The translations under genes were made by a program, and so were the position numbers. A stretch of DNA of 49,138 nucleotides, from the NCBI GenBank assembly GCA_963636895.1, contig CAVHMC010000002.1, forward strand, positions 1 through 49,138, in the 5' to 3' direction. The notes under the pieces were generated by a model, which saw only the letters and a list, made by a program, of their open reading frames with translations, searched no databases and was not told the DNA's origin. Shown piece after piece: positions 11,461 through 48,979 of the stretch (the stretch's first letter is position 1; the number at the start of each line of letters is the position of its first letter). The stretch is from Oscillospiraceae bacterium. GTDB lineage: Bacteria; Bacillota; Clostridia; Christensenellales; UBA1242.

Positions 11461-11523
11461 TTTTTCTCCTAAAAATTTTAAAATAAAGACCCAAATTGAA
11501 AAGGTTTTCAACTGGGCCCAATT

Positions 11524-11600
11524 TGGTGCGTCTGATTGGATTTGAACCAACGACACCGAATTTCGAAGACTCGTGCTCTATCCAGCTGAGCTACAGACGC
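11524..11600 (-). tRNA. tRNA-Arg (anticodon TCG)
   Basis: Hand-folded 77-nt cloverleaf: GCGTCTG/CAGACGC acceptor, GCTC/GAGC D stem, CGAGT/ATTCG anticodon stem with loop CTTCGAA, GTTGG/CCAAT T stem with TTCAAAT loop, and an encoded CCA. Confidence 0.85.
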
Positions 11601-14198: not shown

Positions 14199-14426
14199 AG
14201 AGAATTCAAGAAAAAAAGTTTTTATTGTCAAATTATTTGGTTTTTTTTGGATAAAATAGTATTATATAATTATATTGATGGGAACTCTTATTTGCGTGCT
14301 TATCTTTTCATGAAGTCATTTTAAAATTAAAGAGCGAATTGGTGGCAACTTTTATAATAGTGGTGTAACGATTTTGAAATTTACTTTCCATAATCATATT
14401 GATTTTTGGATAAAAAGGAGAAATTT

Positions 14427-17400
14427 ATGCGAAATTTTTTTGAAAAAGGTAAATGGTTATTGCTCGGGCTTGTCTTTCTTGTCCTTCCAATGTGCTTGGT
14501 GGGGGTATATTCATTTTCTGGTGAAAATGCTTGGAAAAATGATAGTAGTTTGGCTATGTCAACTTTGGGTAAAGGGCTTGACACCGGCGACCGCCTAGCG
14601 ACTGCTTCGCCCCGCTCGGCGACCGCCTCTACAAATTTAAACGACCTTTCTACATATAGTTTAAACAACACTAGACAGTCTGTCGCAAATGTGAGTTTAA
14701 GCGAAGTACATTGGAATCCAAGCGAGGGTGTTGATACTAACGACGGGACAAATCCGTCTCTTGCTGTAAAGACTCTCGACAAAGCAAAAATGCTTGTGTC
14801 TCCCAATGGCAAAATATATATGTCGGGACAATATACTCTTGAAAAAGATACGACTATAGATTTTGGCGGACTTTCTATTTCTCTTTTGGGTGGTGTGACA
14901 GGAGATGCCTACTTTAACGTAAATGGGGCCTACAATTTAACCTTTAAAAATGCAACTATTACAACTCAAGATACAATAACTCTTCCGCTTATAAAATGCG
15001 CAAACAGTTCGACTTTGAATATTTCAGACATAACTTTCAGTAATTTAAAGGCAAACAATATTATTCAAGGCGAAGCAAAAAGCAATATTACAATAGAAGA
15101 TTCTTCTATAGAAAATTGCAATATGACACACTTTATAACGGGAAAATATGCAAGTTTGAGTCTTAAAAATTGCACTTTCACAAGCAACACTTCTTCTAGT
15201 GTTGGTGGGGCTTTGTACCTTGAAGGTGAGACGACGCTAAGCGATTGTACCTTTACAAAAAACACAAGCACTGGTGGAGGTGGAGCAATTTATGTTGCAA
15301 GCGGAAGCCTTTATGTAAAAGACAAACTAACTGTGCAAGGCAACAAATCAATAGTTGCGGAAGACGCCTTGGTTGGTGGTGGAATTTATGTAGCTGAGAA
15401 TGCAACTCTTGTGATTGAAAGAGACGTGCTGTTTGTTTGTACTGAAAACACGCATAAAGTGTCAAGTGGCGACACTGAAACAAACGACAACCTTCTCCTT
15501 ATGACGACAAATAAAAAAATTTTAAAAGGCGATTTGCAAACTGGAAGTACTTTTGGGCTTGGGTGTCGAGCAACAGATTCTGCCGAACAAAATGCACTTT
15601 TAAGTTTTGGTTTAAATTATCCTTTGTTGGAGACCTTGAAAGGTTGTGCGACTTCGGATAATGACGACTATGGGCTAAAATTTGTCTCTATAAAAGGTGG
15701 CGATTGCGGACTTGTGTTCTACAAAAAAGAACAAACAAATTATTGGTCTATTGTAGACGATAGGGCAGTAAAATACGACGCAACAAAAAGTTATACTGTA
15801 AACGATATAACTATTATGTATGGCGATGAAGAAGTGGATAAAGTGTCTTGTACTACGAAATACTCCACTGATGGCACAACTTTTTCTTCTCAAAAGCCAA
15901 CATTTACAGGTGTGGGACAATATGAAGTGAAATATCAAACGACTGTTACAACTTCTGACGGTCACGATACCACAATATCGGGCAGTACCTATCTTTCTAT
16001 AATAGGAGTTAGATTGTATGTCGAAAGTTATCCAAAGGCTTATTTGACCTACAAGGGATATTTGAGAGACGCAAGTTTTGTCGGTGGTCGTGTTGTAAAT
16101 GATGAAGGCAAAATTGTCACAGGAACATGGTCTTTTGTCGATGAAAATACAGAAGGTAACAACAATGTTATATATTCTGCAAAGTTTACTCCCTCAAACA
16201 CCGCAACCTTAAACGTAGGCAGTGATTATTTCTTGACTGAATTGCAATTAGCAATTCGTTATTCCATTGTTTTCTACAAAGACGGATATTTTTGCACAGA
16301 CTTAAATACTTATAGCCGTATTGGAAATATCACGCAATTGGAAGATATTATTGCTTTAATGGAAGATGATGGGACGTTGGTTTTTTGTAGCACATACAAG
16401 GTTAATGGGGTGGAGACTATTGACGTGAAAGACAAAACCCTAACGTTTGCTCGACATAAAGATTTTGTTTCAAGCCCTATGATTTCTGTGGAAGCAAACA
16501 CAAACGAATTAAAAAATTCTCTTACACTGAGTGGCGATATTGTTTTCGACGGTGCATCTCCATATGGTGGGAATATTTCGGATAGCGGAAATGTAAAAAA
16601 TGATGCCATATTTGAAGTAGGAAACCCGTCAGTTGATACAGCTACGGGTGGGACCTTGAACATAAACAGCGGGGTCGTTATAAAAAATTGGACTTTAGAG
16701 TTTAGTGCTCAAAAAGGGCTTATAATTATTTGTTCACCAGGAACAGTCAACCTAGACGGGTGTAAGATTTCCAGCAACAAAATAACTTCGTCGGGAGACT
16801 ATAAGTCAAGTGTTATTTTAAATTCTGGCACGCTAAACCTTGTAAGTGGCGAATTTTATGAGAATGAGAACTATTATCTGCCTTCTACCATCTCAGGCGA
16901 AACCACCACAAGCACCGCTTATTATGGAGGCTTCTTATCTTGCGTTGGGGGAAAGGCGACGATGACGGGCGGAACAATTGGAAAAAATACCGCAAATTAT
17001 GGCGGGGCAATTTATCTTGAAGATGCAACACTAAAGTTGCTTGGTGGAAAGATTTATGCCAACAAAGGCATAACGGCTGGCGGTGCTATTTATGCCACAG
17101 GGTCTTCTTCTATCACAATTGACGAAGATTTTGCTATAACGGACAACATGTCGGGCAGTTTGGGGACTTTAGTCCTTAACAATGTGGAAAAAACGGATAG
17201 TATAACAATAGTAAATTCGGACGGCACTGCTGTAACTGGTATAAGTGCAATGTCTAAACTTGACGAAATTGAAAGAAAAAATTTAAACAATGTTGAGTTT
17301 AAAAATATATCCCCAAAAAATAACGACGAAAACACCACACAAGAACGCTCGGTCGGAGTCGTTCTACCTATAGCATGTGCAACATGTGTCGTGCTAATTT

Positions 17401-17456
17401 GTCTCGCAATTTATGAATTTATTAGAAAAAACAAGACAAAATTTACAAAAAAGTAA
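14427..17456 (+). CDS. tail-anchored surface protein with Pmp-type beta-helix repeats; smaller paralogue of the giant gene
   Basis: ATG at 14427 follows AAGGAGA (14415-14421). The track's TTG at 14406 lies inside the RBS region. It has a hydrophobic N-terminal signal (WLLLGLVFLVLPMCLVGV). Repeated (N/D)CxFxxN and GGA(I/L)Y motifs occur (KNCTFTSN, SDCTFTKN, VGGALYLEG, GGGAIYVASG, YGGAIYLEDA, AGGAIYATG). An Ig-like module (GTWSFVDEN...FTPSNT) is present. A C-terminal TM (VGVVLPIACATCVVLICLAIYEFI) is followed by a basic tail, RKNKTKFTKK. There is no LPXTG. Confidence 0.85.
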   Translation: MRNFFEKGKWLLLGLVFLVLPMCLVGVYSFSGENAWKNDSSLAMSTLGKGLDTGDRLATASPRSATASTNLNDLSTYSLNNTRQSVANVSLSEVHWNPSEGVDTNDGTNPSLAVKTLDKAKMLVSPNGKIYMSGQYTLEKDTTIDFGGLSISLLGGVTGDAYFNVNGAYNLTFKNATITTQDTITLPLIKCANSSTLNISDITFSNLKANNIIQGEAKSNITIEDSSIENCNMTHFITGKYASLSLKNCTFTSNTSSSVGGALYLEGETTLSDCTFTKNTSTGGGGAIYVASGSLYVKDKLTVQGNKSIVAEDALVGGGIYVAENATLVIERDVLFVCTENTHKVSSGDTETNDNLLLMTTNKKILKGDLQTGSTFGLGCRATDSAEQNALLSFGLNYPLLETLKGCATSDNDDYGLKFVSIKGGDCGLVFYKKEQTNYWSIVDDRAVKYDATKSYTVNDITIMYGDEEVDKVSCTTKYSTDGTTFSSQKPTFTGVGQYEVKYQTTVTTSDGHDTTISGSTYLSIIGVRLYVESYPKAYLTYKGYLRDASFVGGRVVNDEGKIVTGTWSFVDENTEGNNNVIYSAKFTPSNTATLNVGSDYFLTELQLAIRYSIVFYKDGYFCTDLNTYSRIGNITQLEDIIALMEDDGTLVFCSTYKVNGVETIDVKDKTLTFARHKDFVSSPMISVEANTNELKNSLTLSGDIVFDGASPYGGNISDSGNVKNDAIFEVGNPSVDTATGGTLNINSGVVIKNWTLEFSAQKGLIIICSPGTVNLDGCKISSNKITSSGDYKSSVILNSGTLNLVSGEFYENENYYLPSTISGETTTSTAYYGGFLSCVGGKATMTGGTIGKNTANYGGAIYLEDATLKLLGGKIYANKGITAGGAIYATGSSSITIDEDFAITDNMSGSLGTLVLNNVEKTDSITIVNSDGTAVTGISAMSKLDEIERKNLNNVEFKNISPKNNDENTTQERSVGVVLPIACATCVVLICLAIYEFIRKNKTKFTKK

Positions 17457-45300: not shown

Positions 45301-45784
45301 ATCACTCTTTGTTGGCGGACAAGTGCCAGATTTCGACGTGGTATTCGAAAAAGACGGCAAGGAAGTAGGCGGAGTCGTTTCAAGTGGCAAATACACCGTT
45401 CGTGTAGTGTTCAAAAATGCCAACTACGAATGTACAATGACAAGAACTTTCGAAGTCTACCAAGCACAAAGTTACAAACTTTTGATTATCCTTTTGTCAG
45501 TTATTGGCGGGGTTGCAATGTTGTCCTTTATTGCTGTGGCGTCCGTAAAACTCAATAGAAAGAGATTTAAACGTGCTATCCAAAGAAAACAATTTGAAAC
45601 TCTCAAAGACGAGATAAACAAGACCAACCCAGAGATTTTGAATAGTCACAAGTCGCACCAAGAGTCTGCTCAAAACGAGAACGACTACGGCTATTACGAC
45701 GAGCAAGGCAATTGGCAATATTACGATGGCTATTACGACGAACAAGGCAATTGGCACGACTACCAAGACGGAAATAAAAAATAA
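18209..45784 (+). CDS. giant (9,191 aa) tail-anchored surface protein / putative adhesin: signal peptide, four Pmp-type beta-helix blocks, about 35 Ig/MBG-like repeats, C-terminal TM and cytoplasmic tail
   Basis: An uninterrupted 27,576-nt ORF in AT-rich, stop-rich DNA cannot arise by chance. A GGAGA RBS lies 6 nt before the ATG. The domain logic is consistent along the whole length (see sub-features). TAA stop. Confidence 0.95.
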   Translation: MKKGRLGFVVLLLVSLFCGGLFAVDWTGARVVNADSVESGAVVVYYVDDTSTAGSADGQSSTPFRTLQEAVNACNDYSDLSSVDSFKIVLKSSLFIGNVGTVLFENKTGKDIYILKDSTFSAKNGNTSMINFAQLESGKKLNLEFNGKNGKFIFEGKDIKGNEVVGTAQQSALCIGTKNSSGSGAVYVKDMSLTLTNVTFQNFKCKSNTYGLVNVGCKSTLTNVEFKNNQVRVDSYSEYNNMGYVFDTSYSTITPFEQKFDSCVFEGNIGGLISIENKNDSIKNVIIKDCTFKNNSIKFGALVNLDQIGVSNDKQSLADEKTSSLGFSGTEFVGNKALTTDTQGSSAFLIKATNMLRFAMEKSSTRVQAEGQSADEVGCNIFKNNEYESSTTDASYAVDISVATIEESKSAIQLSDLVVEDNNATKKANSSAVFFRLSTGKGSVNNVVAKNNRQNLFLSNEMTSMNFVDSTFQDDNTYGNGQYAIKIVDTLGQCNFTMKNCTINSFRAKTGKENAVVCVTNAFQTEFNNVTIKNIANQTNTSFAIKIMGCSNNKFIDINIDNCDNGIYVEKVGSGLFIDGVYYGFYMSTSKTEKMNTISNTRVVSIYLGVVKGMGETQALIKNLNLQNSGRIEYGESSSSVETTDEYSFELNNVHYYGRHRSKVESDDTTYGGLYGFKWLSLYNLYQVIIGNCSYHDNSKGSSCVAKVGDTATTDNSQFANSIMEITNIANYVMMSNCQFYNVDNTNTGNSLISISVKEDLTLQNCEFRGFNNNLSGEKSSSTLMSLKAKNISLTSNVTIDGYWAGNSAIRLSGIEAGSTAKLGDVTFTNNKLWISSDKMNECALLYIDANNFSSVKIGNTIFGSTMPDTDVTSGGNHITGASNYYGGLICINVDTSNTENKTIEMSNTVIAGNIVENGYALFASAKKSNITLSDVKLIHNDMLRTGESSVGGSTIRLTSFTKASLDNIKIEDSNIYGYGYDFSYVDEISLTNSTYSGNACAGTTSGSCAGAVSFYGTITNANIESCSFLDNKFGSNLIYYDNSNSAGTTIATLTFKKNQLKNNEAKRVSYFTSKVIVDSDYKGWLLNCTAGQTVELQANIISGNKANILSLTKITGSIIIDGGEITDNTIPKSNDGVASSFSNSCILNIQSILKTIKIIGGLEISRNTVVGNSSINSQDSKTYTFINISSCLDWTNAFYGKVELLYIDEIICKDNVSLASDMILTSLFRIYSVVETEIKNANIENNFSNATLDCVLSLPSENSKRFSFTSGTISGHDTVKNILSTSSGRQYAPQINFADSTISGNTFRSYAFGQGSGELYYTLSLNNLKFVYNVVTATSNDDTNLIYLGLVHVRNEKMSIDKCEFLYNVSSNVSTAGVYFNNARGSYSYELKNCVFTGNKGANGSAVYVADGVTVTLTSCTVDLNESTSGAIYSRSKLTLNDCTFYKNNASANGGVINGSNIYVNGCTFKENSAKFGGAIYLVSSGTLIIDKGYQGRTIFDGNYVKTPDSSSKTTLSGGALYLGSKSVTLSYGNLFQNCYISGGSSDTMQGGAIYVGTNASLNLEKNSKNGYVSEFINNGKSSNYGGAIANFGSIYMKDVVASGNIAQNGGFVYQPINESNVASLEIYDSTISSCYAEGTTDTTGLGGGLYLSSKVIVSGCTFVDNVANSYGGAIYYKETRTKEEGIDILNCTFSGSTANSCHGTAIAIANGNTEYVVINNVTVNNTSGESGIFVGDGNVQIEDLETTADIKVGMEVAIANTRTSVVYLGRKIVLPQASSGAGLTTNVALKLFSVLLDESTIAISPTFEGVVLESDGSYVIKSSDFNKLQSCNTKYKLSFKINDGTNFTKNTVNAVAVDSGSVCVANDFYGFSTDKNSPTSALQVFAYNYGSNVEILYGTSIDACTSTEWITGLDLGVLHTIYYEVKVDSVTKAKGQGYVFMENAIGIYVAVLPTIGTVQVDTSLDNGAISGGEVVEYGDTSARIAGTFSWALDSNGQVVSPTETGLNRFNIVFTPKDSKYASITFGVVVEVVGYGVVYYGVKDTGSLVTQEMYKTAEDAKKNDNPIITRGILDSDIFTEMMKKMADGGTIYMFKNCAYPVNLYVDGKTIYIKKYASDADPSTLSTTKYNEHTNSAMFSFVTMVSGSISFGSANMTGKIIIDGDGKKSYYPLIELGGFDTTIVNASFYNGVEITNFNGIGCSAIGVVGYINLTIYGLKATNCNYILPRNLDNDDVTVPIEKVAGRNNPILYYGGAVLSTRTGYIADNSSNTRYTPRVTIEDFEADNCSSESYGGAICITSMPVGCQFYINKDSRGNIAMGMLCDNTRYYPISIANMTISNCSAVKGGGAFATLCATGLVIKNMTLTNNSTNGNGGAIYLKYAESMYKGEISNNHADKYGGGIYVENQPTSVATANSLTDTEKQNTTYYDVELGINAQNTLDILSNSAGLLGGGVYAENGLTMSYANIISNTITIGETFSGDLGDWCFYGAGIYANCEKTTNQYKLDTVRLTLSNCVVKNNKIINNNANVIKLAGAGIYAKEISLSNVTITQNSIILNVKTTSTIFMQGAGLSLQKINSTSNTIENCEITNNNIKVFVSTEAFVGGAGVSLASSTPDSNGIENMLTIKNSDTSNNFFDIASASDKVVSKYSQVLVEALYNSEEDSATTTVVLTLDGVTSYSTSKEGGIGSIGIGVSGSQPILSSKINVSLIRLTGLLNITSALEATSFTSGMPGGCTNLHDDYEIDYYCSIYAYDLDKDSVVKINITEENGVEKYQIVQFDQEYARSLSSTDSDIYELGANAINEQNKVTIDVLSSLRNIFDFTIVKTMSEGETKIEYKKFYSTIGLISVDTYSTTIYGPFAVYAQKTSDTTLLEEIFWDPINGNDSYSGSTAKYSVKTLENAVKKSISGATIYLINSLEITKNTTLTAKNRIIQRNSNNKITIRAGVTLTLQDIVFDESNATTQYGTLIDILTGGTLVVETGTNITNLQSNNSQAFSSIINNRGNLIINGGQFTLNSVNGSGGIIYSTGAIEINDGFFSDNFALQGSVAWIEAGEVIINGGSFVRNRQYSSSDVTSLVVQKGGVFYVNEKATLTINDGSFEGNNAMLGAVIYSVGKVNITGGVFYNNNARTAKDYTDDLYTYYAPGFGGVGYFEKGTANVSGGNFEANVATNGAVFVVGSVNTSAQLDISSKAVFYNNSAITLTGARDKYLTSFTSATTWSKNNLSNKIINNMKFGSGGVIFGYQNATINISGGDINSNISANYGGALYVLGSTLVISGGAIRNNRIDFYGSVESDNSEYNSRKNRDTKGGAIYYEGMENLEGFSFVNNEIDADTQAITNTTISSIKNPRFVIKGGVISGNLANQGSAIYLATGSSNAYYASLVISGGEIVSNGEFEFRYYGTSQAQQVNGGAIYAVANTFIEMKDDAYIACNKAFFAGAIYTDGNILVNGGRIENNETNNETSTTASAIYAGGENGSVVIRDGIISNNLAHAGKLYSTPAVYVVAGGLYLGENAYVFGNNNEYILEGSIKQRQIDILFEKLVDGSKKNVFIYDNFSSSAKIGFYSQETNIGTKKLRFAQVNPKACDSAVVKVFENTSDNTIYLALIGTGLYIGAQEIKTVKYTASDYIARRDGDVHGIDITIEEASNTIEPEFLCLEEGVINYYGNDLSKVYEAKKNDSEWVKENPKVASGTYYVLFRFYDTLTSTYLTDANGNDFYDYRVIKITTKDYFVEKNPTVTTELIAGVNYVASGGSENVYVIRFVENDWKVVDSLNNAIVLDGVFMLASTSIKFDTIGKQYMLVKYIPEDKTYAEKTFAIEVFVSAQDIYYSESKGTFYLDENLTLKAFTTDSSIAPTMKDALDALTANGSIVIKDGSYKVTSNEEWNIVNKTIVFKRGTNAKDALIETVKGSLTINATGTGSLTIDGGALWFEEVSSGKWNDSDPTKIDVSKQYQQTSGLQSRGALIYAKSNVTISGKVILQNNENTDNGGAIYAESGVVTLSNGVSILSNMAQNGGAIYIGNTADLNIKNSGEQVVIKQNATRSGFGGAIYVSTGRELAIDNANITTNLARGSGGAIYAFDAKSLNLTNTIIDNCKSTDSTIYVSVSSKDTVLTLKDCNFTVPTDVDVKGIIYSGNKTKMAGVVFEGENYFRGSILLDENIFIHDKSSALKEDSAVGVKRLNDEESIADILVALSNTSSDDYSSKYSLISDNTKLVNITTHNADNYYNEKGYANYVTINGKQIATNTLQIGGGFEASILPYQGATNTYTIKMEYGKLYGDYFNANNTKISNVKLSDGTYGEIDLTQEKVGYKKISYELNLNSDNKTMNMSYQVVYNAGIKIIATWEQAQPTFEVEVYTFDEKIETEDSKGTVVGYKGLNKVEAVKGTYNTTYGKQVLVKVTITNRNDTDFSYRVNSANGEFTQERDSEDDVYFAYILKEASIYDFTIISIATNNVTQDDKRSEQKVTVNIAKAIIDLKLDDSVLSRTFDGNDMSIQVSDLIVDTKLEYNDSKDDLNLAIVTSAKEKGDSGATARNVGTYNCVVSVGNNNYQLSSATLAWHITPLQLKISHYIDIWDNNKIYTNDFQGGSHYLVPCFENVKGSDKVNVSISTQNYSTSETETLIYQFSNVDPYTLLNDLIKPTSHSLKAPFFSKIGKYIGNIEKIYNIDNNYKLSDDEQDTTYTYTWNITKSQAFISKFVLSDGTPTNKEEIIANTIVGGAYDMGSKTYSGNTKYLSVIMKDSVGNEITSGLTLELTLYNNTTNVKVGETKTVIVGVGDPFDTSKFVSFTNAGTYRLEVKVTEGYDMDTKSVYKAIFNLEKEQLTLQWALGIATSESEEVSEYTRNESINGTYHLAISYLAKEVYAYVTGATVNGEAFNIVSDMFEYAKGLDEVFTTNCKNLSLRDNTKNLEVERVVRLTSTYSDNYEIVSNASCLVFISKTKLSVTWDSNTQKEFTGSDILFEPTVKTNLNEVVNVSSFYDLSGNKYTAINSYTCTIQGTQALEDSNYYIATEDTTCAWSIIPKEITLEWYAVSYTDENGNGQVKLGSKTFSFVYDGKYYDLMANPYGLIAGRTDVSVALEGSGAQKNVRSGAVSSYTKVAKDLTGSDSGYYTIKADSIEKTWQITPCPVIIEWTVERDSYETSNLSSVREVYYTGKDRVVTFTSSGFINTTEKSSWDKTASITTKYRSSAISNLVDASGTKEVGIYITSVTSNDSNYKVDISSGSVTWEIKKAPMTIEWQWLDSNVDIYKNKKLLPAGDTDYNGTSVVYTSQANYLTTVKAVASNDATMSITQFSPTYKIYGGDPINTKDIKNAGTYEVTVILANETDRNHYELTNPSMTFAIDPATIGFEWKSSADSYFKEGASGVPEAEVLINSSTGEAKAQYYYFEEKDPAKSDGSVISYKVEFLYNNVIKQTNIENVTPKPETSSTLIAFKDFLANNSKDAGTYTIRITGMSSTNNYVFDKNSSTNSITYVIKPKQLDESTRITLVYSDGTSYTYDGTQKTIDVQISNNFALGVVFDNYKLTGTTTAKYAGNYNFKVEITDPNYIFSGTGTNVSSDLTWTIGKREATIVWHNTKLETISAGYMFDYTGAFQGPVAPKVINAVEGDVFDFTYDTTSPYVKEAREVGKYTTRLNSVENKNYYLSDNTRDFSWEIVNTRISFKWSASNTSFAKDSDDVQTATYTANPMYFMPTTTSIFNTDREDITFRIDVYYSDTATSFTGAGTDTASTCFTISDINTSGFNYNPTKTCINVGYYMAKVTLVNAGNYQLSNDNTNVFMWRISQRTVNFSWTKTSVTYNGTQQNPTATVLGAQSTADLGQFSLTFQFSSLSTEDWGDSSPKNAGQYRVKVYSLGKAEVLSNYTFNANDYITFTINKKSLGDITFIRGDSSSSLIYEGSAKYYLLDTTKVSDMGVESSDISNIVFNHTYYYKSVKGTTFNELSEGGTSCKNAGSYRLEILLGDDTTSANYKLNNNTTQTWQIVQKSITFNWYVENEKDYQTKENMPFNIIYCGKEIVVKAKAVIDNVEQSTEIVGSYGNNIGKDVATKTAEVLSLSSQNLYDNNYTFSKDTNSNYQKSWSIVKRAVSISWACSVAGDTSYQKVYNGNAYYYYPTFEGTSKIEGDDLAFQTTITRAGISISTFTNCVDAGSYTASVSGMSGVSSGNYELSSSANKQQSWTIMPQELTVEADGSTSVTYDSAEHRFKAKITSGLVVTDDVQLLYTYTVDGEEQQKVYFVSATNVGTYTATLSLGGEKAGNYTIKSDNQSLVFTITKCQLTISWSSSSYSYNFNGLEQHPEPTIVNPIDVSTSTIVSYKYKAQASGSTGYTLETISPIHAGNYQMTAQLNDPTNYEWSGTNETSFTINQVTPAINIYPIAMGSASGSGSNTTALIVVSGCGDDAPYGSVILTVGTTVYSDLNLTQLPLTTVSSDGKTTRFDGVGNNDTAKEILQTYYSNVGCSYCIYSYPETNAEGYTPTAKYTAGKDDSKYSMESNYTNVSVPQAGQQFVPQGNNQEDIYLYYESSNSIQPVTSSSTISGYKYGDRVTFYITGGSDITYETNTTTQDTYNNFYRIMINSQVATPSASSNSVEVIENGISIAKVTYVSLLESKDGVTTINGLKILQVEVQFLKPTGANALYVGAYKKGGDYVDASSNKKNFAQVASNPGKFFIDKKAITINVPDATMNYGDKSSLAFAKDGSGNLVRYTLDSSGAIVQPYQFLSNFSLTSGGLVRDTDKADIISALKPKIIEKASTKTGYNSKVVTLETLYNDYYIFTTSGNTYGGLLITGRKLTASDVIVTLQDEANLCYVGEKLQPTITSIKTTDTNSTTLGSDSYDIKDYGEYINAGVGVITIQFKGDYTGTIERQYKINKLDISKATKNDTSSTKTKLFTSKDGTYYLCYDAKLEEEVSYTGETIVKNFDSVFTIVKNDATIKTFAYKALPSDIKITSFSNQNAGRANIKIEALSNSTNFTGTKDIYFNITACTVNSEDITSYTLSDGNSNHEIVFSGLNNNPNVLEVKYKTNISLAYTIVDWYKYDTTSKKYSKVTQAETMNVGTYYVGLNITGERNAYYVNYTGTVYLEYSVTQFNINSLDVTIEIEEGQDLQYTGLSINPTIKVYWRAPVVTTDSNGNVTFNGVYTQTLLEDNRDYDYSSAGEGTNINAGKNSGIIKIKAKSSNFTGEKQALFDIEKRDLYAISDQNLTPNWKNSYSYTGSQIIINGTELPTISWGTKTLSFGTDYVILPAGEGTNINQGKGSITIRGTGTNYTGEKALTFTISKLDVNNNQNKFNVTLEKSEYYYTGDAIQPQVLYVTFNNKLLTAGVDYNETINYGSENTNASTNKAKVYITFGQDLASNFTGKLEWTFEIKPLSIESADFVVRENNVEDGATSVMSQITDVVYTGSDITKTIYLYAKFGNTYKKLYTQAMLQDTSTNPDYEYSFSNNQNVGEATITISGLNNYTGTIKKSFKINALDMFDLIKNGQATVAGESGESIKVSSQEYTRSVIVPDVSIAWGIKTLVRNTDYTLTAVFDNCDNVNVSTNNKTRIDFMGNYTGSYTFTFEITQRSLASATISIPDIEYTGSDITSDDLAKLFSLYDDNYLLSYGTDYTININSTDKKNVGPKPYEIVGTGNYTGKIENLTFNIVARNIANHVADFTLSTSNVYYTGSVINLADTKKGYNVEFKYLGTTLSSNIDGGDYSFGTYENATNAGTAYVTITGKGNFTGSAKFAFTIERQDLKSLPTKNIKINQSYRYTGKAVCPVPTAVTDLYGNTVSPEQYTIQYKNNISVSSENSKPSLTLIFKGNYSGTVTKEFEIAKTYLTASDLVYTPANLVYTGKTIVPTFEQIGSLSIKRDDNGKTILVTQDDIQSITEYTGNSLNSKTVDNTNVSSGAKCGAFEITFGGYNNIYTGTVVLSFNITQLDISSDLVTIDSNLTKDETYTGASITKTFDGKIKVGDVSLDGNYNVQSYTSNTDVGVVTITIEGTNNLTGTRKIQFNIVPFDIGSATVGAIASQTYNYGREVTLDSLKVNVTLSSGARTLEKNTEYRIAGYENNTQVGTATVYIQGVGNFTGTITMTFKITTVEIGTNYELKETKTYTYSGEGIRLGDQRDENGKSYFVLVVDGLDEIKIYDDKCKYANNLKASTVDSKASVSFNISNFSNNYASKDITIEYEIERLAYDSSYISVPDIPTQLAGATPITITFEQNTFGEIKYKETTLVEGIDYTLEQFPTNASAIADTIGGVRITFIGNFTGEVVKRFAIKRNQPTQEDFGEQNFKIVPNDATSTTDVIRYGEYGTLADLKIVNNSGVDSSSIVWFEDPTTPINFVGTITVYVRYQPDDTYDAGLFELPLTVEKGIYKDEVNVYADKKDDEQYFTIKYKKGIVLTDVELPEGFSWQYQVINASDIKSGTRYSTDGIEFKTYDGEPLNTSLTYYEETTSLEFTIGNEQYVEKTFKAKYNYNSAYYQDVKDIVVKVRLLKGDLDPSVFRYRDTTVTYSPTITASSIKLPTTDWPWTWIGNQKGFSSSVLKVENSPYTFYMTFDPAKTNESGVPVNGGFPESVYGNKLNYNTLTVEAKIYVNRADYTQNKINSALAEYVVSTVTYKKDLRTSEIDLNLPQGFDLRDENQLLSYGENDVYVVYNKESKFDNNYNPYGESVTNSISVKVLVISPTLVGSLEEGGGEVVTTATGGLAISRTYGDNLANNRAIPFGVTYFNYITGSWEAVNGSSEWVDGSEKLLSVGVITRQVKFTPSDTNFISGKEYITFDVEVLISQQGNEGELRQSLAFASDEQYMAYTPSSTLANINKIQRVEGSTSAVVFNAFDDVFYTYKYITLDKDGHYTPQDVKNATEYELTNSTVLSAKGNSEGAYRSLYIIYANFTRGGCVYYNFGEDYKPSYELYIYKATLNVNLPSITKTYGDLSISGNIEDVGATGLSALENGKDYVFNVRDSNGNAVYLNYATPAGVYTMEITLVDKNGSLSNNYDFDKTKTATYTIEKLAITDFKLDHGVLYENGSILNDKITITFDTSLFVGGQVPDFDVVFEKDGKEVGGVVSSGKYTVRVVFKNANYECTMTRTFEVYQAQSYKLLIILLSVIGGVAMLSFIAVASVKLNRKRFKRAIQRKQFETLKDEINKTNPEILNSHKSHQESAQNENDYGYYDEQGNWQYYDGYYDEQGNWHDYQDGNKK
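18311..23450 (+). other. beta-helix block 1 (long CxFxxN-type repeats ending in a dense GGAIY cluster at ~22380-23400)
   Basis: Recurrent motifs include KDCTFKNN, KNCTINSF, GNCSYHDN, SNCQFYNV, QNCEFRGF, KNCVFTGN, NDCTFYKN, NGCTFKEN, SGCTFVDN and LNCTFSGS. They are interleaved with NGSAVYV, FGGAIYLVSSG, SGGALYLGS, QGGAIYVGT, YGGAIANFG, LGGGLYLSS and YGGAIYYKE. These are the two signature tetrapeptides (GGA[ILV], FxxN) of the polymorphic-membrane-protein repeat family. Confidence 0.75.
24700..26150 (+). other. beta-helix block 2
   Basis: YGGAICITS, KGGGAFATL, GNGGAIYLKY, KYGGGIYVEN, LLGGGVYAEN, YGAGIYAN, LAGAGIYAKE and VGGAGVSLAS, interleaved with NCS/NNS-type turns. Boundaries are approximate. 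Confidence 0.65.
27050..28790 (+). other. beta-helix block 3
   Basis: SGGIIYSTG, KGGVFYVNE, MLGAVIYSVG, GFGGVGYFEKG, NYGGALYVLGS, TKGGAIYYEG, NQGSAIYLATG, VNGGAIYAVAN, FAGAIYTDG and VAGGLYLGEN, with repeated INGG/ISGG turns. Boundaries are approximate. Confidence 0.65.
30000..30600 (+). other. beta-helix block 4 (short)
   Basis: SRGALIYAKS, DNGGAIYAESG, QNGGAIYIGNT, GFGGAIYVSTG and GSGGAIYAFDA. Boundaries are approximate. Confidence 0.65.
31620..37330 (+). repeat. class I Ig/MBG-like tandem repeats (about 18 units, roughly 105 aa each)
   Basis: By eye there are about 19 repeat junctions of the form aromatic-x-I-x-x-[KPQ]-x-[LI] (LAWHITPLQL, YTWNITKSQA, CAWSIIPKEI, KTWQITPCPV, VTWEIKKAPM, LTWTIGKREA, FSWEIVNTRI, FMWRISQRTV, QTWQIVQKSI, KSWSIVKRAV and others). 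Each is preceded by N[AV]G[TSQ]Y and followed by a [YF]xG/YDG/YNG strand (TFDGND, FVYDGKYY, YTYDGTQK, VTYNGTQQ). This matches the pattern I know as the MBG (YGX-type) domain. The family name comes from memory, not from a search. Confidence 0.6.
38210..43010 (+). repeat. class II MBG-like tandem repeats (about 16-18 units, ~90 aa period)
   Basis: About 16 copies of the closing motif G-[ND]-[YF]-T-G followed by x-F-x-I (GDYTGTIERQYKI, GNYTGKIENLTFNI, GNFTGSAKFAFTI, GNFTGTITMTFKI and others). Each repeat opens with a YTG strand (LQYTGLSINP, YSYTGSQII, YYYTGDAIQP, VVYTGSDIT, IEYTGSDIT). A 24-nt identical DNA segment at 39677-39700 and 39947-39970 gives a 270-nt (90-aa) period. Confidence 0.65.
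43010..45470 (+). repeat. C-terminal Ig-like repeats of a third type (membrane-proximal stalk)
   Basis: A recurring pattern reads ...L-P-x-G-F-x-W / LPTTDWPWTW / LPQGFDL ... Y-x-P ... NY ... V-x-V-x-[KR]. One module, GSWEAVNGSSEWVDG...VKFTPSDTNF, resembles GTFSWALDSNG...FTPKDSKY at ~24170-24300 and GTWSFVDEN...FTPSNT in the 14427 paralogue. Confidence 0.5.
45479..45547 (+). other. C-terminal transmembrane tail anchor of the giant protein
   Basis: LLIILLSVIGGVAMLSFIAVASV (23 hydrophobic residues) is immediately followed by the basic stop-transfer sequence KLNRKRFKRAIQRK. No LPXTG or other sorting motif is present. Confidence 0.8.
45548..45781 (+). other. predicted cytoplasmic tail with a duplicated YYDEQGNW motif
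   Basis: A positive-inside segment is followed by DYGYYDEQGNWQYYDGYYDEQGNWHDYQDGNKK. The two YYDEQGNW copies are also near-identical at the DNA level (45688-45770). Confidence 0.65.
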
Positions 45785-45976
45785 AACCTACAAGACGACA
45801 AAGGAAATAATAGACCTTATTGTACGTGAGCCCCCCTTGCTATTGGGGCTATGATTTAACCTATCACACACACTCCCCCTTGCTATTGGGGCTAAATGGG
45901 GGTAGTAAAAACACCGTCCCCTACAAGAGTGTGTGAGACTAACCTATTCTACAAAGGTGTGTGAGACCAACCTATT

Positions 45977-46202
45977 AATACCGTCCCTTGTAAGGGAAGG
46001 TGTCACGCAGTGACGGAAGGGTAGTAAAGTTTGAACTCCTACTCGCCTAACTAAAAGGTAAAAATACCGTCCCTTGTAAGGGAAGGTGTCACGCAGTGAC
46101 GGAAGGGTAGTAAAGTTTGAACTCTTACTCGCCTAACTAAAAGGTAAAAAGATTTTACAACCCCCCAGTCCTAACGGACAGCCCCCCTTGCTATTGGGGC
46201 TA
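45977..46202. repeat. 226-bp long direct repeat, copy 1 (two 86-nt units plus the AGATTTTACAACCCCCCAGTCCTAACGGACAGCCCCCCTTGCTATTGGGGCTA module)
   Basis: Base-for-base identical to 46317-46542 by visual alignment, at an offset of 340 nt. Confidence 0.9.
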
Positions 46203-46316
46203 TGATTTGACCTATCACACACACTCCCCCTTGCTATTGGGGTTATGATTTAACCTATCACACACACTCCCCCTTGCGAGGGGGAGTGTCGGCAAAGCCG
46301 ACGAGGGGGTAGTAAA

Positions 46317-46542
46317 AATACCGTCCCTTGTAAGGGAAGGTGTCACGCAGTGACGGAAGGGTAGTAAAGTTTGAACTCCTACTCGCCTAACTAAAAGGTA
46401 AAAATACCGTCCCTTGTAAGGGAAGGTGTCACGCAGTGACGGAAGGGTAGTAAAGTTTGAACTCTTACTCGCCTAACTAAAAGGTAAAAAGATTTTACAA
46501 CCCCCCAGTCCTAACGGACAGCCCCCCTTGCTATTGGGGCTA
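46317..46542. repeat. 226-bp long direct repeat, copy 2
   Basis: Identical to 45977-46202. Within each copy the two 86-nt units differ at one position (C/T at 46039 vs 46125 and at 46379 vs 46465). Confidence 0.9.
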
Positions 46543-46628
46543 AATGGGGGGTAGTAAACCTTTTCCCCACCCTAAACAAAACCTTTTCAATTTGTGCAAA
46601 AATAAATAAAAAAATATCGTTTTTTTAC

Positions 46629-46657
46629 TTGACACCTTTAAAAAAGTCCTATATAAT
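46629..46657 (+). promoter_or_regulatory. consensus sigma-A type promoter of the lipoprotein gene
   Basis: TTGACA (46629-46634), a 17-nt spacer, then TATAAT (46652-46657). Confidence 0.7.
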
Positions 46658-46663
46658 CATTTA

Positions 46664-46861
46664 CGTAGAATGTTTTAGCACCTTTTATTCAAACAAAATT
46701 TGGTAAGGCAGTAACATTTTTCGGGCGTTTGACATAAAAAATCTAAAGTGCGAAGACGTAATACACTTATGGGCTCGGAGATTGTTCTGCCTTTTTTTAT
46801 CTGTGGCGGATAAGGCAAAGCATATTGTACGACCCCAAAAATTTTAAAAGGAGAAATTTAT
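46664..46861 (+). promoter_or_regulatory. long (~200 nt) structured 5' leader with competing pairings and an internal U7 tract
   Basis: AAGGCAGTAACA (46705-46716) can pair with TGTTCTGCCTT (46783-46793) over 11 bp with one bulge, followed directly by a T7 run (46792-46798). The same TGCCTT can instead pair with AAGGCA at 46812-46817. I recognise no known riboswitch consensus. Confidence 0.4.
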
Positions 46862-48979
46862 ATGAAAAAAGCAAAAAGTAAAATTTTATCGGCGTTGTTG
46901 TTCGCGTTGCTTATTGTTCCTTGCATGCTTATCGTTACCGCTTGCGGAGAAGAGCACAAGGCAGTATCCGACTGGTCCAGCAATGCTACACATCACTGGC
47001 ATGCTTGCTCGGTAAAAGACTGCAAAGAGCATGAAGGTGAAAAAGCTTTTAATTATGCAGAACATACCGGCATGGAAGATCACATTTGCGACGTTTGCGG
47101 ATATAAAGAACATAAGGCAACTACAACTTATGGCAAAGACGACACAAAACACTGGTTTACATGCCAAATCGAGGGTTGCAAAGAACATTTTGGAGAAGCA
47201 ACTCATAATTACGACGCAACTACACACGAATGTGTTTGCGGAAAGGTTGACCCAGCCTATGTGGCAAAAATTACTACTACAGGTGAAGCGCCTACCACAA
47301 CTTACTACAAAAGTTTGCAAGAGGCTATAAATGATGCAAGTGCAGGAGCCACGGTAACACTTGTAAAAAATACTTCTATAGATAGTTATGTTACGGTTTC
47401 AGGGAAAAAATTGACACTCGACTTGGGTGGCAAGAGCTTGACCTCTGCTAAGACAGGTATCTATGCAACAGGCGCAAATACAGATTTAACTTTGAAGAAT
47501 GGTACGATTAACTCGGGTGCTACAGGTGTATTTTTGGACAATCAAGCCAAAGTTACAGTAAATGGAGACGTCACGATTGGTTCGAATAGTTCTAAGAGTA
47601 ATAAAGAAGCTGGCATAATTATTTTATCCAAAGCAACACTTGAAATGAATGGTAAGATAAATGGCTTTGGCTATGGTATTGCTGGAAATGGCGGGAAGAA
47701 GGGTGAGACGGAAGATAAAAACGAAGATTATGGTGGCATCACTATAACCCTTGGTTCAACAGCTGAAATTATTGCTTCAGACGATGCTTTGTTCATGCCA
47801 AGCAGTGGGACTTTGACAATCGCCGAGGGTGCTAGACTCACAGCGGGAGACACTGCTTTGTATGTAAAATGTGGCAACGTAACGATAAATGGCGGTACGT
47901 TTGTTACGACAAGTGAAAAAACACCTTATAAACCAACTACTAGCGGTTGCTATCCAACAGGGGCAGCAGTAGTTATCGACACTGTCAACGGTGACAGTTA
48001 CATTGGTGGAAACCCAACAGTCACAATCAATGGCGGAACTTTCACTGTTGCACAAGTTGAAGATGGCAAGACTCCAGCAAATGCTATAGAATATTATCAC
48101 TTGGCTGATGAAACTTATTCTGCTACAATATCTTATGGTGATAAAGTAACTGCTAGAGCGGTAGAATATGTCTATACTCCAGCTGGCGACGGAACTGAAG
48201 CTAAAGTTACACCAGTTGTTACTTATGTTTCGACTTTCGCTGAACTCACTTCCGCAATTGCCGACGCAAATGTAAAAACAGTTGTGCTTACTGAAGACAT
48301 AACAGCAAATACTACGAGCTCAGGTGAAGACGGACACGTGACGGTTTCTAGAAAAGTTACTCTTGACCTTAATGGAAAAACCTTGAAAGGTAGTGGATAT
48401 TGGGGAGTTCTTCATATCGTTGGTGGAGACTTAACGGTTGAAGGCTCTAAAGACGGCAGTGCTGTAGTCGCAAACGGCGCTTGGGGAGAAATAACCGGTG
48501 GAAACGGTTATCGTGCTATGGCTGTCTATGCTTATGGCGGTAAAGTTACTATTAATGGTGGTCATTTCTCGAATACTATCCCAGAAACTTCTAGGAGGGC
48601 ATATAATGATTTGATTTATGCTAAAAATAACACTGATAACAATCAAAAAGTTGGAGCTGAAATAATCATAAATGGTGGTACTTTTGAAAGCGTTACATCA
48701 GGTTGGGTTTTGAATATCAGTGATGGGAGTAAAAGTGGCGAAACAAGTTCTACTATCACGGTTTATGGCGGAAAGTTTAAAAAGTTTAACCCTGAAACAA
48801 ACAAGGGCTTTGACACTCTAGAGTCGGGAGAGGAAGAAGGGAAAGTAAATAGGACGGGAGGTCAATCGGACGGTTCCTTCGTTGCAACTGACTACAAAGT
48901 GGTAAAAGAAATAAAAGATAATGTTGATTGGTATACTGTGGTTGAAAAAACTGCAGAAGAGAAAGCAAAAGAAGGCTAA
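46862..48979 (+). CDS. surface lipoprotein with a duplicated Cys/His-rich module and a beta-helix-like body
   Basis: A GGAGA RBS is present. The signal peptide has the lipobox IVTA-C (Cys28 at 46943-46945). Two copies of H-x-W-x-x-C-x4-CKEH-x-GE...H-x-C-x-CG are present. Recurrent turns are VTINGGTF, VTINGGHF, IIINGGTF and ITVYGGKF. There is an internal duplication (VTLVKN...KKLTLDLGGKSLTS and VVLTED...RKVTLDLNGKTLKGS). Confidence 0.88.
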   Translation: MKKAKSKILSALLFALLIVPCMLIVTACGEEHKAVSDWSSNATHHWHACSVKDCKEHEGEKAFNYAEHTGMEDHICDVCGYKEHKATTTYGKDDTKHWFTCQIEGCKEHFGEATHNYDATTHECVCGKVDPAYVAKITTTGEAPTTTYYKSLQEAINDASAGATVTLVKNTSIDSYVTVSGKKLTLDLGGKSLTSAKTGIYATGANTDLTLKNGTINSGATGVFLDNQAKVTVNGDVTIGSNSSKSNKEAGIIILSKATLEMNGKINGFGYGIAGNGGKKGETEDKNEDYGGITITLGSTAEIIASDDALFMPSSGTLTIAEGARLTAGDTALYVKCGNVTINGGTFVTTSEKTPYKPTTSGCYPTGAAVVIDTVNGDSYIGGNPTVTINGGTFTVAQVEDGKTPANAIEYYHLADETYSATISYGDKVTARAVEYVYTPAGDGTEAKVTPVVTYVSTFAELTSAIADANVKTVVLTEDITANTTSSGEDGHVTVSRKVTLDLNGKTLKGSGYWGVLHIVGGDLTVEGSKDGSAVVANGAWGEITGGNGYRAMAVYAYGGKVTINGGHFSNTIPETSRRAYNDLIYAKNNTDNNQKVGAEIIINGGTFESVTSGWVLNISDGSKSGETSSTITVYGGKFKKFNPETNKGFDTLESGEEEGKVNRTGGQSDGSFVATDYKVVKEIKDNVDWYTVVEKTAEEKAKEG

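What the first reader, a model, noticed from the sequence alone, without database searches (positions are those of the whole stretch)
45875..46558. Divergent modules keep the same layout (one C-run, two competing G-runs, then TAGTAAA), a covariation-like signal
The motif [G-run]TAGTAAA occurs seven times, with TAGTAAA starting at 45903, 46022, 46108, 46310, 46362, 46448 and 46552. Each is preceded by the same logic in three different sequence versions.
- Version 1: CCCTT .. AAGGG .. [GTCAC-GCA-GTGAC hairpin] .. GGAAGGG-TAGTAAAG.
- Version 2: CTCCCCC .. GGGGGAG .. [GTCGGC-AAA-GCCGAC hairpin] .. GAGGGGG-TAGTAAAA.
- Version 3: CCCCC TTGCTATT GGGG CTAAAT GGGGG-TAGTAAAA, with no inserted hairpin.

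In versions 1 and 2 both helices differ in sequence but remain perfectly complementary. In all three versions the pyrimidine run can pair with either of two purine runs.

Preserved pairing despite sequence change points to selection on structure. The either/or pairing is what a switch or pseudoknot would look like.
Basis: partly seen in the sequence, partly recalled or inferred. Interest (0 to 1): 0.72.

Follow-up and report, generated by a model that had tools for sequence, protein, structure and literature searches.

The report
Nested palindromic repeats between adhesin genes
The seven "modules" are copies, most of them recent duplicates, of a short hairpin-forming repeat stacked up in the spacer between two giant surface-protein genes; it looks like an ordinary bacterial intergenic palindromic repeat array, not an RNA switch.

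Summary
The motif is real. GGGTAGTAAA occurs exactly seven times at the stated coordinates and nowhere else in the 49-kb contig. The seven are not independent:
- Four (version 1) are identical copies, from an 86-nt tandem repeat inside a 226-nt block that is itself duplicated at 100% identity.
- Versions 2 and 3 share identical flanks.

The array (45820-46558) is about 2.1 copies of a ~345-nt super-unit. It lies after the stop of a 9191-aa gene and upstream of the next gene's promoter.

That shows the "second G-run + TAGTAAA" has its own inverted partner, TTTACAACCCCCC(A), a 14-nt match with one mismatch. So the G-runs do not compete: the helices nest into closed multi-hairpin palindromes.

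Folding shows no poised alternative pairing. The proposed competing helix shows no compensatory change. The local hairpins do keep pairing across versions, with 3-5 pairs changed on both sides.

There is no Rfam match and no homologue in any collection searched, apart from one related strain whose array composition differs.

Best reading: a lineage-specific mosaic of palindromic units resembling REP/BIME/REPIN or BOX elements. Function is inferred only, most likely passive RNA 3'-end hairpins. Low to moderate interest.

The parts
45820..45836 (+). Left boundary. Degenerate closing arm TTGTAC-GTGAG-CCCCCC of super-unit I, 36 nt after the stop codon of the 9191-aa gene.
   Evidence: Read. It resembles the Z arm TTTTAC-AA-CCCCCC and can pair with GGGGG-TA-GTAAAA at 45898-45910 with one G.A mismatch (my reading, not scored by a tool).
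45829..45874 (+). A module: hairpin AGCCCC/GGGGCT with a 10-nt loop, then the linker ATGATTTAACCTATCACACACACT. Further copies at 46180-46225 and 46226-46268 (43-nt tandem period).
45864..45912 (+). Version 3a: ACTCCCCC-TTGCTATT-GGGG-CTAAAT-GGGGG-TAGTAAA. It is enclosed by the inverted repeat TCACACACACTC / GAGTGTGTGAGA (45864-45875 / 45927-45938).
45910..45976 (+). X segment, unique to super-unit I. Contains a 28-nt tandem repeat x2 (45921-45976) and no significant fold.
45977..46148 (+). Two 86-nt units. Each is a version-1 module of 52 nt (hairpin TCCCT-TGTA-AGGGA, hairpin GTCAC-GCA-GTGAC, then GGAAGGG-TAGTAAA) plus a 34-nt Y linker. Repeated identically at 46317-46488.
46151..46209 (-). Version 4, in inverted orientation: CCCC-AATAGCAA-GGGGGG-CT-[GTCC GTTA GGAC]-T-GGGGGG-TTGTAAAA. 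Its + strand start, TTTACAACCCCCCA (46154-46167), is the 5' closing arm.
   Evidence: Covariance-model hit of 34.1 bits, E = 3e-8 in the whole-window search. Inverted repeats I4 and I5.
46258..46316 (+). Version 2: a perfect 11-bp hairpin ACACTCCCCCT-TGCG-AGGGGGAGTGT, a hairpin GTCGGC-AAA-GCCGAC, then GAGGGGG-TAGTAAA. In context its tail pairs with 46153-46166.
46317..46488 (+). Second pair of 86-nt units (version-1 copies 3 and 4). Part of the 226-nt block that is 100% identical to 45977-46202.
46491..46549 (-). Second copy of the inverted version 4. It shares its central hairpin with version 3b.
   Evidence: Covariance-model hit of 26.8 bits
46492..46558 (+). Super-unit III: a compact quasi-symmetric doublet. 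TTTACAACCCCCCA ... TGGGGGGTAGTAAA (14 nt, 93% complementary) closes a three-way junction made of GTCC-TAAC-GGAC and CCCCCC-loop-GGGG.
   Evidence: I5. RNA fold -39.0 kcal/mol, z = -3.8. DNA fold z = -4.5.
46559..46628 (+). Unique right flank, CCTTTTCCCCACCC... The related strain L002 has the same flank joined to a version-1 module that ends in TAGCAA.
46629..46657 (+). Context only: consensus promoter TTGACA-17-TATAAT for the downstream 705-aa gene. The array lies wholly upstream of it.

Best explanation
This is a lineage-specific mosaic array of short, GC-rich, nested palindromic repeat units. It is the same kind of object as REP/BIME/REPIN clusters or BOX elements. It fills the spacer between the stop codon of a 9191-aa surface-protein gene and the promoter of the next adhesin-like gene.

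The basic design is an interrupted long palindrome:
- outer arm TTTAC(A/T)A + C-run
- small GTC...GAC hairpin
- inner C-run, loop, inner G-run
- optional second GTC...GAC hairpin
- outer G-run + T(A/T)GTAAA

The second G-run belongs to the outer closing helix and is not a competitor.

The array has grown by local duplication at three scales (43, 86 and ~340 nt). Its composition differs between strains, so it turns over by slippage or unequal recombination among its own repeats.

Shown here: the sequences, their nesting, both orientations, the duplications and the strain difference.

Inferred only:
- The array is transcribed as the tail of the giant gene's mRNA, because no canonical terminator precedes it.
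- It folds there into closed multi-hairpin domains that act passively as 3'-exonuclease barriers or transcript-end insulators, as REP and BIME elements do.
- Hairpin complementarity is kept because the palindrome itself is the unit that is copied or recognised, not because a ligand-responsive switch is under selection.
For: - Hierarchical duplication.
- The motif is confined to this spacer.
- A fourth version sits on the opposite strand with the same layout, and the spacing from hairpin 2 to GTAAA is exactly 9 nt in versions 1, 2 and 4 (and direct reading).
- There is a dedicated inverted partner for [G-run]TAGTAAA, 14 nt at 93% complementarity.
- Super-units fold as closed domains: -39.0 kcal/mol, z = -3.8 for unit III and -77.3 kcal/mol, z = -6.3 for unit II. 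The same folds appear with DNA parameters.
- The local hairpins are conserved across versions.
- The related strain joins a different module type to the same unique flank, immediately after GGGTAG(T/C)AA.
- The version-1 module is 46/46 identical between the two strains, while the adjacent spacer is 81% identical.
- The region has no coding potential, no terminator-like site on the + strand inside the array, and no known RNA family.
Against: - No second genomic locus with the element could be found, so a dispersed family is unproven. No other copy lies in the roughly 20 kb of ordinary genes and spacers in the window.
- No RAYT-like or IS200-like gene was found among the window ORFs that were scanned.
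- Version 1 has only one C-run, so within that module the two G-runs really do share a partner.
- Function is entirely inferred; there are no expression data.
- The 100% identity of the duplicated block could partly be an assembly artefact.
Confidence: 0.55

Rival explanations
1. A mobile miniature element (MITE, REPIN or PATE type). Each closed unit with the ends TTTAC...GTAAA would be moved as a hairpin-forming single strand by a transposase encoded elsewhere in the genome (RAYT-like or IS200/IS605-like). The array would be a pile-up of nested insertions.
For: - Terminal inverted repeats of 14 nt with one mismatch.
- Both orientations are present.
- There is a fixed 9-nt spacing between a subterminal hairpin and the GTAAA/TTTAC end in three versions (reading).
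- On the minus strand the end reads TTTAC, which contains TTAC, the IS608 target. That last point comes from my own knowledge and is a lead only.
- The module is more conserved between strains than its flanks.
Against: - No target-site duplication at any unit boundary (reading).
- No other copy in the window.
- No transposase among the window ORFs that were scanned.
- No match in GTDB genomes, JGI metagenomes, IMG/VR, plasmids or phages.
- The 43-, 86- and 340-nt periodicities are explained more simply by tandem duplication.
Confidence: 0.2
2. One reading: a cis-acting structured RNA in which the C-run toggles between two G-runs, as a switch or pseudoknot that regulates a neighbouring gene.
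For: - The local hairpins are preserved through sequence change.
- In version 1 the single C-run could pair with either G-run.
- One U.G pair in the extended version-1 stem fits the + strand as RNA (reading).
Against: - No balanced alternative: more than 99% of the ensemble is in one state, and the alternative is 3.8-7.3 kcal/mol worse.
- The competing helix has no compensatory change and fails in register for version 1.
- In versions 2 and 3b, G-run 2 has its own partner.
- The position is wrong: after a stop codon and before the next promoter.
- The module occurs in both orientations.
- It is repeated up to seven times.
- There is no Rfam match.
Confidence: 0.07
3. A DNA-level protein-binding or recombination array. 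The repeated palindromes would be sites for a recombinase or nucleoid protein that drives variation or expression of the two adhesin genes.
For: - The location, between two large surface-protein genes.
- Orientation-independent palindromes.
- The array composition differs between strains.
Against: - No recombinase gene in the window.
- No inverted repeats bracket the promoter at 46629.
- The strain difference is equally explained by slippage.
Confidence: 0.08
4. A tandem cluster of small-RNA genes, like LhrC1-4 or the csRNAs, or small RNAs processed from the 3' UTR that use C-rich motifs.
For: - The 86-nt unit size.
- C-rich motifs (UCCC, CUCCU) as used by Firmicute sRNAs (own knowledge).
- Weak terminator-like sites on the minus strand after the TCCCT/AGGGA hairpin.
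Against: - No promoter-like site within the array on either strand.
- The stems are only 5 bp and are followed by CGGTATTTTT.
- The units are identical, and the C-runs are buried in stems.
Confidence: 0.05
5. The copy number is partly an assembly artefact: a de Bruijn graph cycle was traversed twice, or two strain alleles of the middle segment were threaded in series. The true locus would then hold one super-unit.
For: - The 226-nt block is 100% identical in both super-units, while the segments between them differ.
- The related-strain contig breaks exactly at a module start.
Against: The module types themselves, the inverted version and the closing arms do not depend on copy number. None of this is testable without reads.
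Confidence: 0.15

Closest known systems
REP / BIME / REPIN elements of Enterobacteria and Pseudomonas
   Same: - Short GC-rich imperfect palindromes in intergenic DNA, usually 3' of genes.
- Clustered as mosaics of several unit types with specific linkers.
- Units in alternating orientation that form larger hairpin doublets.
- Copy number varies between strains.
- Act as RNA 3'-end stabilisers when transcribed (own knowledge).
   Different: - GTAG is not at the 5' foot of the palindrome, and the inverted version has GTTG.
- No dispersed copies in 49 kb and no RAYT gene seen.
- The sequence is unrelated.
- The host is a low-GC Firmicute- or Mollicute-like organism.
BOX elements of Streptococcus pneumoniae (boxA-boxB(n)-boxC)
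   Same: - Modular build with a variable number of internal ~45-nt units.
- Strong predicted secondary structure.
- Intergenic position near surface and virulence genes in a low-GC Gram-positive organism (own knowledge).
   Different: - BOX is dispersed in more than 100 copies per genome. Here only one locus is known.
- Sequence relatedness was not tested, because no BOX model was available in the tools.
MITEs with terminal inverted repeats (e.g. the Correia/NEMIS element of Neisseria)
   Same: - A closed unit bounded by terminal inverted repeats of about 14 nt.
- Folds into a long hairpin when transcribed.
   Different: - No target-site duplication.
- Arranged in tandem and nested, not dispersed.
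- No parent IS element.
Riboswitch or attenuator expression platforms (mutually exclusive helices)
   Same: In the version-1 module, one pyrimidine run is complementary to two purine runs.
   Different: - Not located in a leader.
- No aptamer family match.
- No poised equilibrium between the two pairings.
- No covariation for the alternative helix.
- The second purine run has its own partner in the full element.

Membership tests
REP/BIME/REPIN | Short (20-40 nt) GC-rich imperfect palindromes in intergenic DNA | tested here: met
   Version 1 and version 2 each fold into two hairpins. DNA-parameter z-scores are -3.6 and -4.8. The region is non-coding.
REP/BIME/REPIN | Units clustered in alternating orientation, forming inverted doublets | tested here: met
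   Minus-strand version 4 lies next to plus-strand versions 2 and 3. There is a 14-nt closing inverted repeat.
REP/BIME/REPIN | Conserved GTAG tetranucleotide directly at the 5' foot of the palindrome | tested here: not met
   GTAG lies 6 nt 3' of hairpin 2 on the + strand. Version 4 has GTTG and L002 has GTAGCAA.
REP/BIME/REPIN | Tens to hundreds of dispersed copies per genome | tested here: inconclusive
   There is no copy elsewhere in the 49-kb contig, but the genome is not available. Collection scans found nothing.
REP/BIME/REPIN | An associated RAYT (TnpA-REP) gene | not testable with these tools
   None was found among the window ORFs that were scanned. The rest of the genome is unknown.
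MITE | Terminal inverted repeats | tested here: met
   TTTACAACCCCCCA / TGGGGGGTAGTAAA, 93% complementary.
MITE | Target-site duplication flanking each copy | tested here: not met
   The flanks are AAAGA|...|CCTTT, AAAGA|...|ATACC and CCTTA|...|ACACC. None shows a direct repeat (reading).
Riboswitch/attenuator-type RNA switch | Lies in the 5' leader, between the promoter and the regulated ORF | tested here: not met
   The array spans 45820-46558. The only strong promoter is at 46629-46657, and the upstream stop codon is at 45784.
Riboswitch/attenuator-type RNA switch | Two mutually exclusive helices of comparable stability | tested here: not met
   Summed pair probability for the C-run is 2.99 vs 0.001 (version 1), 4.99 vs 0.009 (version 2) and 0.006 vs 4.95 (version 3a). 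Blocking the preferred partner costs 3.8-7.3 kcal/mol.
Riboswitch/attenuator-type RNA switch | Covariation supporting the alternative helix | tested here: not met
   None of 6 pairs has changes on both sides. 154 of 500 shuffles do as well, and version 1 is unpaired in register. There are only about 3 independent sequences.
Riboswitch/attenuator-type RNA switch | Match to a described RNA family | tested here: not met
   Nothing at Rfam 15 gathering thresholds. At E <= 10 there were only miRNA and Moco matches far below threshold.
CRISPR array | Identical repeats separated by unique spacers of similar length | tested here: not met
   The "spacers" are themselves repeated identically: 43-, 86- and 340-nt periods at 96-100% identity.
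Tandem sRNA genes (LhrC-like) | Each unit has its own promoter and intrinsic terminator | tested here: not met
   There is no promoter-like site inside the array on either strand. Only weak 5-bp minus-strand terminator-like sites were found.
BOX element | Modular A-B(n)-C build with a variable internal copy number | tested here: inconclusive
   A modular build with variable internal copies is seen. Homology to boxA, boxB or boxC was not tested, because no model was available.

The most novel reading that the evidence does not exclude
The units are a previously undescribed family of self-closing multi-hairpin elements in an uncultivated low-GC lineage. They would have ends TTTAC.../...GTAAA, a subterminal GTC...GAC hairpin at a fixed 9-nt distance, and C-run/G-run helices. 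Either they are moved as single-stranded DNA by a hairpin-recognising (Y1/HUH-type) enzyme, or they are selected as a specialised 3'-end protection device for an exceptionally long (27.6-kb) mRNA.
Probability: 0.12. Interest if true: 0.55.

Novelty: new member of a known kind. Interest (0 to 1): 0.27.

Why it matters
If this reading is right, the finding matters mainly as a caution. Nested palindromic repeat arrays can look like RNA covariation, because duplicated copies inflate the count and each palindrome arm automatically matches its partner.

It also adds a repeat element with no sequence homologue to the catalogue of bacterial intergenic mosaics. It sits at a strain-variable junction between two very large adhesin-like genes, where such arrays could affect mRNA stability or recombination.

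It does not open a long-standing question.

Tried and rejected
- **Rfam.** Nothing relevant at gathering thresholds or at E <= 10.
- **Exact-pattern scans.**
  - The version-1 hairpin 23-mer found nothing in GTDB genomes or JGI metagenomes.
  - The A-module 20-mer gave one chance hit inside a Bacteroidota coding region and nothing in IMG/VR.
  - Two further module patterns found nothing in IMG/VR.
  - The conserved downstream leader 21-mer found nothing in JGI.
- **blastn** of the array against plasmids and phages: no match.
- **Protein searches.**
  - The downstream 705-aa protein has only one close relative (P0002, giving L002) and distant ones whose upstream regions lack any such repeat.
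  - The giant protein's C-terminus returned no hits.
  - A six-frame translation of the array, meant to catch spurious ORF calls in other assemblies, returned nothing.
  - An exact look-up of the window's own 705-aa protein found it is not on record.
- **Literature.** A string search for the motifs returned only primer coincidences. Sample accessions were not found.
- **Ideas considered and dropped.**
  - CRISPR: the spacers are repeated.
  - Type I toxin-antitoxin repeats: no small hydrophobic ORF.
  - Integron attC: GCCTAAC is present, but there is no GTTRRRY partner.
  - A CsrA-type GGA decoy: absent from versions 2 and 3.
  - A two-tetrad G-quadruplex: fails for version 3.
  - The direct repeat flanking hairpin 2 as a target-site duplication: replaced by the nested-palindrome reading.
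  - A mini-ORF after GGAAGGG (TTG + 7 codons): rests on a single synonymous difference.

Full report
**Context**

The window is a complete 49,138-nt contig (one search lists it as the longest contig) from a low-GC bacterium, about 37% GC. It carries ordinary housekeeping genes: pyruvate kinase, IscS/NifU, signal peptidase, DegV, SSB and QueH. It also has two tRNAs.

One ORF of 9191 aa runs from 18209 to 45784 on the + strand. A 705-aa adhesin-like ORF starts at 46862. The finding lies in the 1077-nt spacer between them.

The only strong promoter in the spacer is TTGACA-17-TATAAT at 46629-46657. The repeat array (45820-46558) is therefore downstream of a stop codon and upstream of the next gene's promoter. 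It has no coding potential.

**Checking the observation**

TAGTAAA starts at exactly the seven stated positions. Extended to GGGTAGTAAA, there are seven exact matches. All lie within 45900-46558 and none elsewhere in the window. The three sequence versions read as described.

The seven are far from independent:
- Tandem Repeats Finder and the repeat finder show an 86-nt unit repeated twice (45977-46148). It sits inside a 226-nt block present twice at 100% identity, 340 nt apart. This accounts for all four version-1 copies.
- A self-comparison shows that the array is about 2.1 copies of a ~345-nt super-unit: 45829-46179, 46180-46519 and a partial third copy at 46520-46558, 87% identical over 377 columns.
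- Versions 2 and 3 occupy the same position in different super-units. They share their first 20 and last 14 nt exactly.
- Similarity between versions 1 and 2 beats shuffles only because of the shared GGGTAGTAAA tail (z = 4.05 with it, 1.2 without).
- CCCCCTTGCTATTGGGG occurs five times, but only two copies carry the second G-run + TAGTAAA.

The effective sample is two or three sequences.

Besides the training copies it found two matches on the minus strand, at 46209-46151 (34.1 bits, E about 3e-8) and 46549-46491 (26.8 bits). Nothing above 13.5 bits turned up elsewhere in the window.

The alignment shows a fourth version with the complete layout: CCCC-AATAGCAA-GGGGGG-CT-[GTCC GTTA GGAC]-T-GGGGGG-TTGTAAAA.

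Two things follow:
- **Conserved spacing.** In versions 1, 2 and 4, hairpin 2 always begins GTC and ends GAC. It is always followed by exactly 9 nt (GGAAGGGTA, GAGGGGGTA, TGGGGGGTT) before GTAAA.
- **A dedicated partner.** On the + strand this inverted copy reads TTTACAACCCCCCA. That is the reverse complement, with one mismatch, of TGGGGGGTAGTAAA. The repeat finder confirms 14-nt arms at 93% complementarity, 46494-46507 with 46545-46558 and 46154-46167 with 46545-46558.

The "second G-run + TAGTAAA" therefore has its own C-run partner.

**Folding in context**

- Super-unit III (46476-46572) folds into a closed three-way junction at -39.0 kcal/mol, z = -3.8. The outer helix is TTTAC.AACCCCCC with GGGGGGT.AGTAA. 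The two inner hairpins are GTCC-TAAC-GGAC and CCCCCC-loop-GGGG. DNA parameters give the same fold, z = -4.5.
- Super-unit II (46136-46330) is closed by the same outer helix around four inner hairpins at -77.3 kcal/mol, z = -6.3.
- Super-unit I begins with a degenerate arm, TTGTAC-GTGAG-CCCCCC (45820-45836, read).
- A further inverted repeat, TCACACACACTC / GAGTGTGTGAGA, brackets version 3a.

The region is a nest of interrupted palindromes.

**Testing the switch idea**

- **Ensemble.** In isolated modules the C-run pairs almost exclusively with one G-run: G-run 1 in versions 1 and 2, G-run 2 in version 3. Blocking the preferred partner costs 3.8-7.3 kcal/mol.
- **Local hairpins.** On the five-row alignment, 89% of cells are paired, against 29-58% when the partner is slid. 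Three pairs change on both sides.
- **Competing helix.** It has no pair changed on both sides and does no better than shuffles (154/500). It is unpaired in register for version 1, which needs a two-column shift.
- **With the inverted copies added.** The local hairpins reach five pairs with double changes. The number of such pairs is still within the shuffles (209/500), and the cell counts are inflated by duplicated rows.

Hairpin preservation is real but anecdotal. The either/or pairing is not supported. Version 1 is the exception, since it has only one C-run. Even there the local hairpin wins by 4.9 kcal/mol.

**Relatives**

No Rfam family matches.

Exact-pattern scans of GTDB genomes, JGI metagenomes and IMG/VR found nothing beyond one chance hit in a coding region. 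So did blastn against plasmids and phages. A six-frame protein trick and a search with the giant protein's C-terminus also failed.

The downstream protein has one close relative, on a 3-kb Logan contig (L002):
- That contig begins exactly at the start of a version-1 module.
- The first 46 nt of the module are identical to the window.
- The module is joined directly to the same unique flank...GGAAGGGTAGCAA|CCCTTTCCCCCACCCC, against ...GGGGGGTAGTAAA|CCTTTTCCCCACCC in the window.

The last module of the array therefore differs between strains, although the junction falls at the same point in the motif. The module is better conserved than the adjacent spacer, which is 81% identical. This fits constraint, concerted evolution or recent spread.

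More distant homologues of the downstream gene have plain AT-rich upstream regions.

**Interpretation**

The best-supported reading is a lineage-specific mosaic of nested palindromic units. It was amplified locally at 43-, 86- and ~340-nt periods and turns over between strains. In kind it resembles REP/BIME/REPIN clusters and BOX elements.

Membership in REP proper fails on the position of GTAG. It is untestable for copy number and for RAYT. MITE membership fails on target-site duplications.

Occurrence in both orientations and equally good DNA folds point to a DNA-level palindromic element, not a strand-specific RNA.

Because no terminator-like site on the + strand precedes or lies within the array, I infer that it is transcribed as the tail of the 27.6-kb mRNA. 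There its closed hairpin domains would act passively as 3'-end barriers. This step is inference from what REP and BIME elements do, not a result.

A mobile-element origin remains a live rival at about 0.2. The evidence for it is the hairpin-recognising-transposase idea, the TTTAC end and the fixed 9-nt spacing.

**Caveat**

The 100% identical blocks in a metagenome contig could reflect an assembly cycle. The module types and their nesting do not depend on this, but the count of seven does.

**Verdict**

Noticed in passing
window 46629-46861: A perfect consensus promoter (TTGACA-17-TATAAT) is followed by a ~200-nt leader before the 705-aa gene. The leader is 91.5% identical to the related strain, against 81% for the spacer just upstream. 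It contains a long imperfect hairpin (about 46705-46793) with several G.U pairs, followed by U7. This could be an attenuator or a ~135-nt small RNA. An A-to-G difference in L002 keeps the pairing as G.U. No Rfam match.
   Followed up: partly
window 46578-46594 (+) and 11492-11508 (-): An exact 17-nt match, AAAACCTTTTCAATTTG. The second copy is part of a hairpin (CCCAGTTGAAAACCTTTTCAATTTGGG) immediately 3' of the tRNA at 11527-11600. It may be a shared terminator fragment or chance.
   Followed up: partly
window 18209-45784: A single 9191-aa ORF, presumably a surface protein. Its neighbour, the 1016-aa ORF at 14406-17456, has Chlam_PMP and beta-helix Pfam hits. The giant ORF's C-terminus has a membrane anchor and a duplicated YYDEQGNW tail, with a weak EAGR_box hit (E = 0.0018). 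A search with the last 450 aa found no homologue.
   Followed up: partly
L002 1-52 versus window 46404-46454: The version-1 module is 46/46 identical between the two strains, while the neighbouring unique spacer is only 81% identical. The terminal TAGTAAA is TAGCAA in L002.
   Followed up: yes
window 46029-46062 and 46115-46148: The only difference between the two 86-nt units is C/T at 46039/46125 (CTCCTAC vs CTCTTAC). It falls in a possible 7-codon mini-ORF (TTG AAC TCC/TCT TAC TCG CCT AAC TAA) that follows the purine-rich GGAAGGG, and it would be synonymous. This is a single observation, probably coincidence.
   Followed up: no
window 45977-46202 and 46317-46542: A 226-nt block is 100% identical in two places within one metagenome contig. 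Copy number here could be an assembly-graph cycle instead of biology.
   Followed up: no
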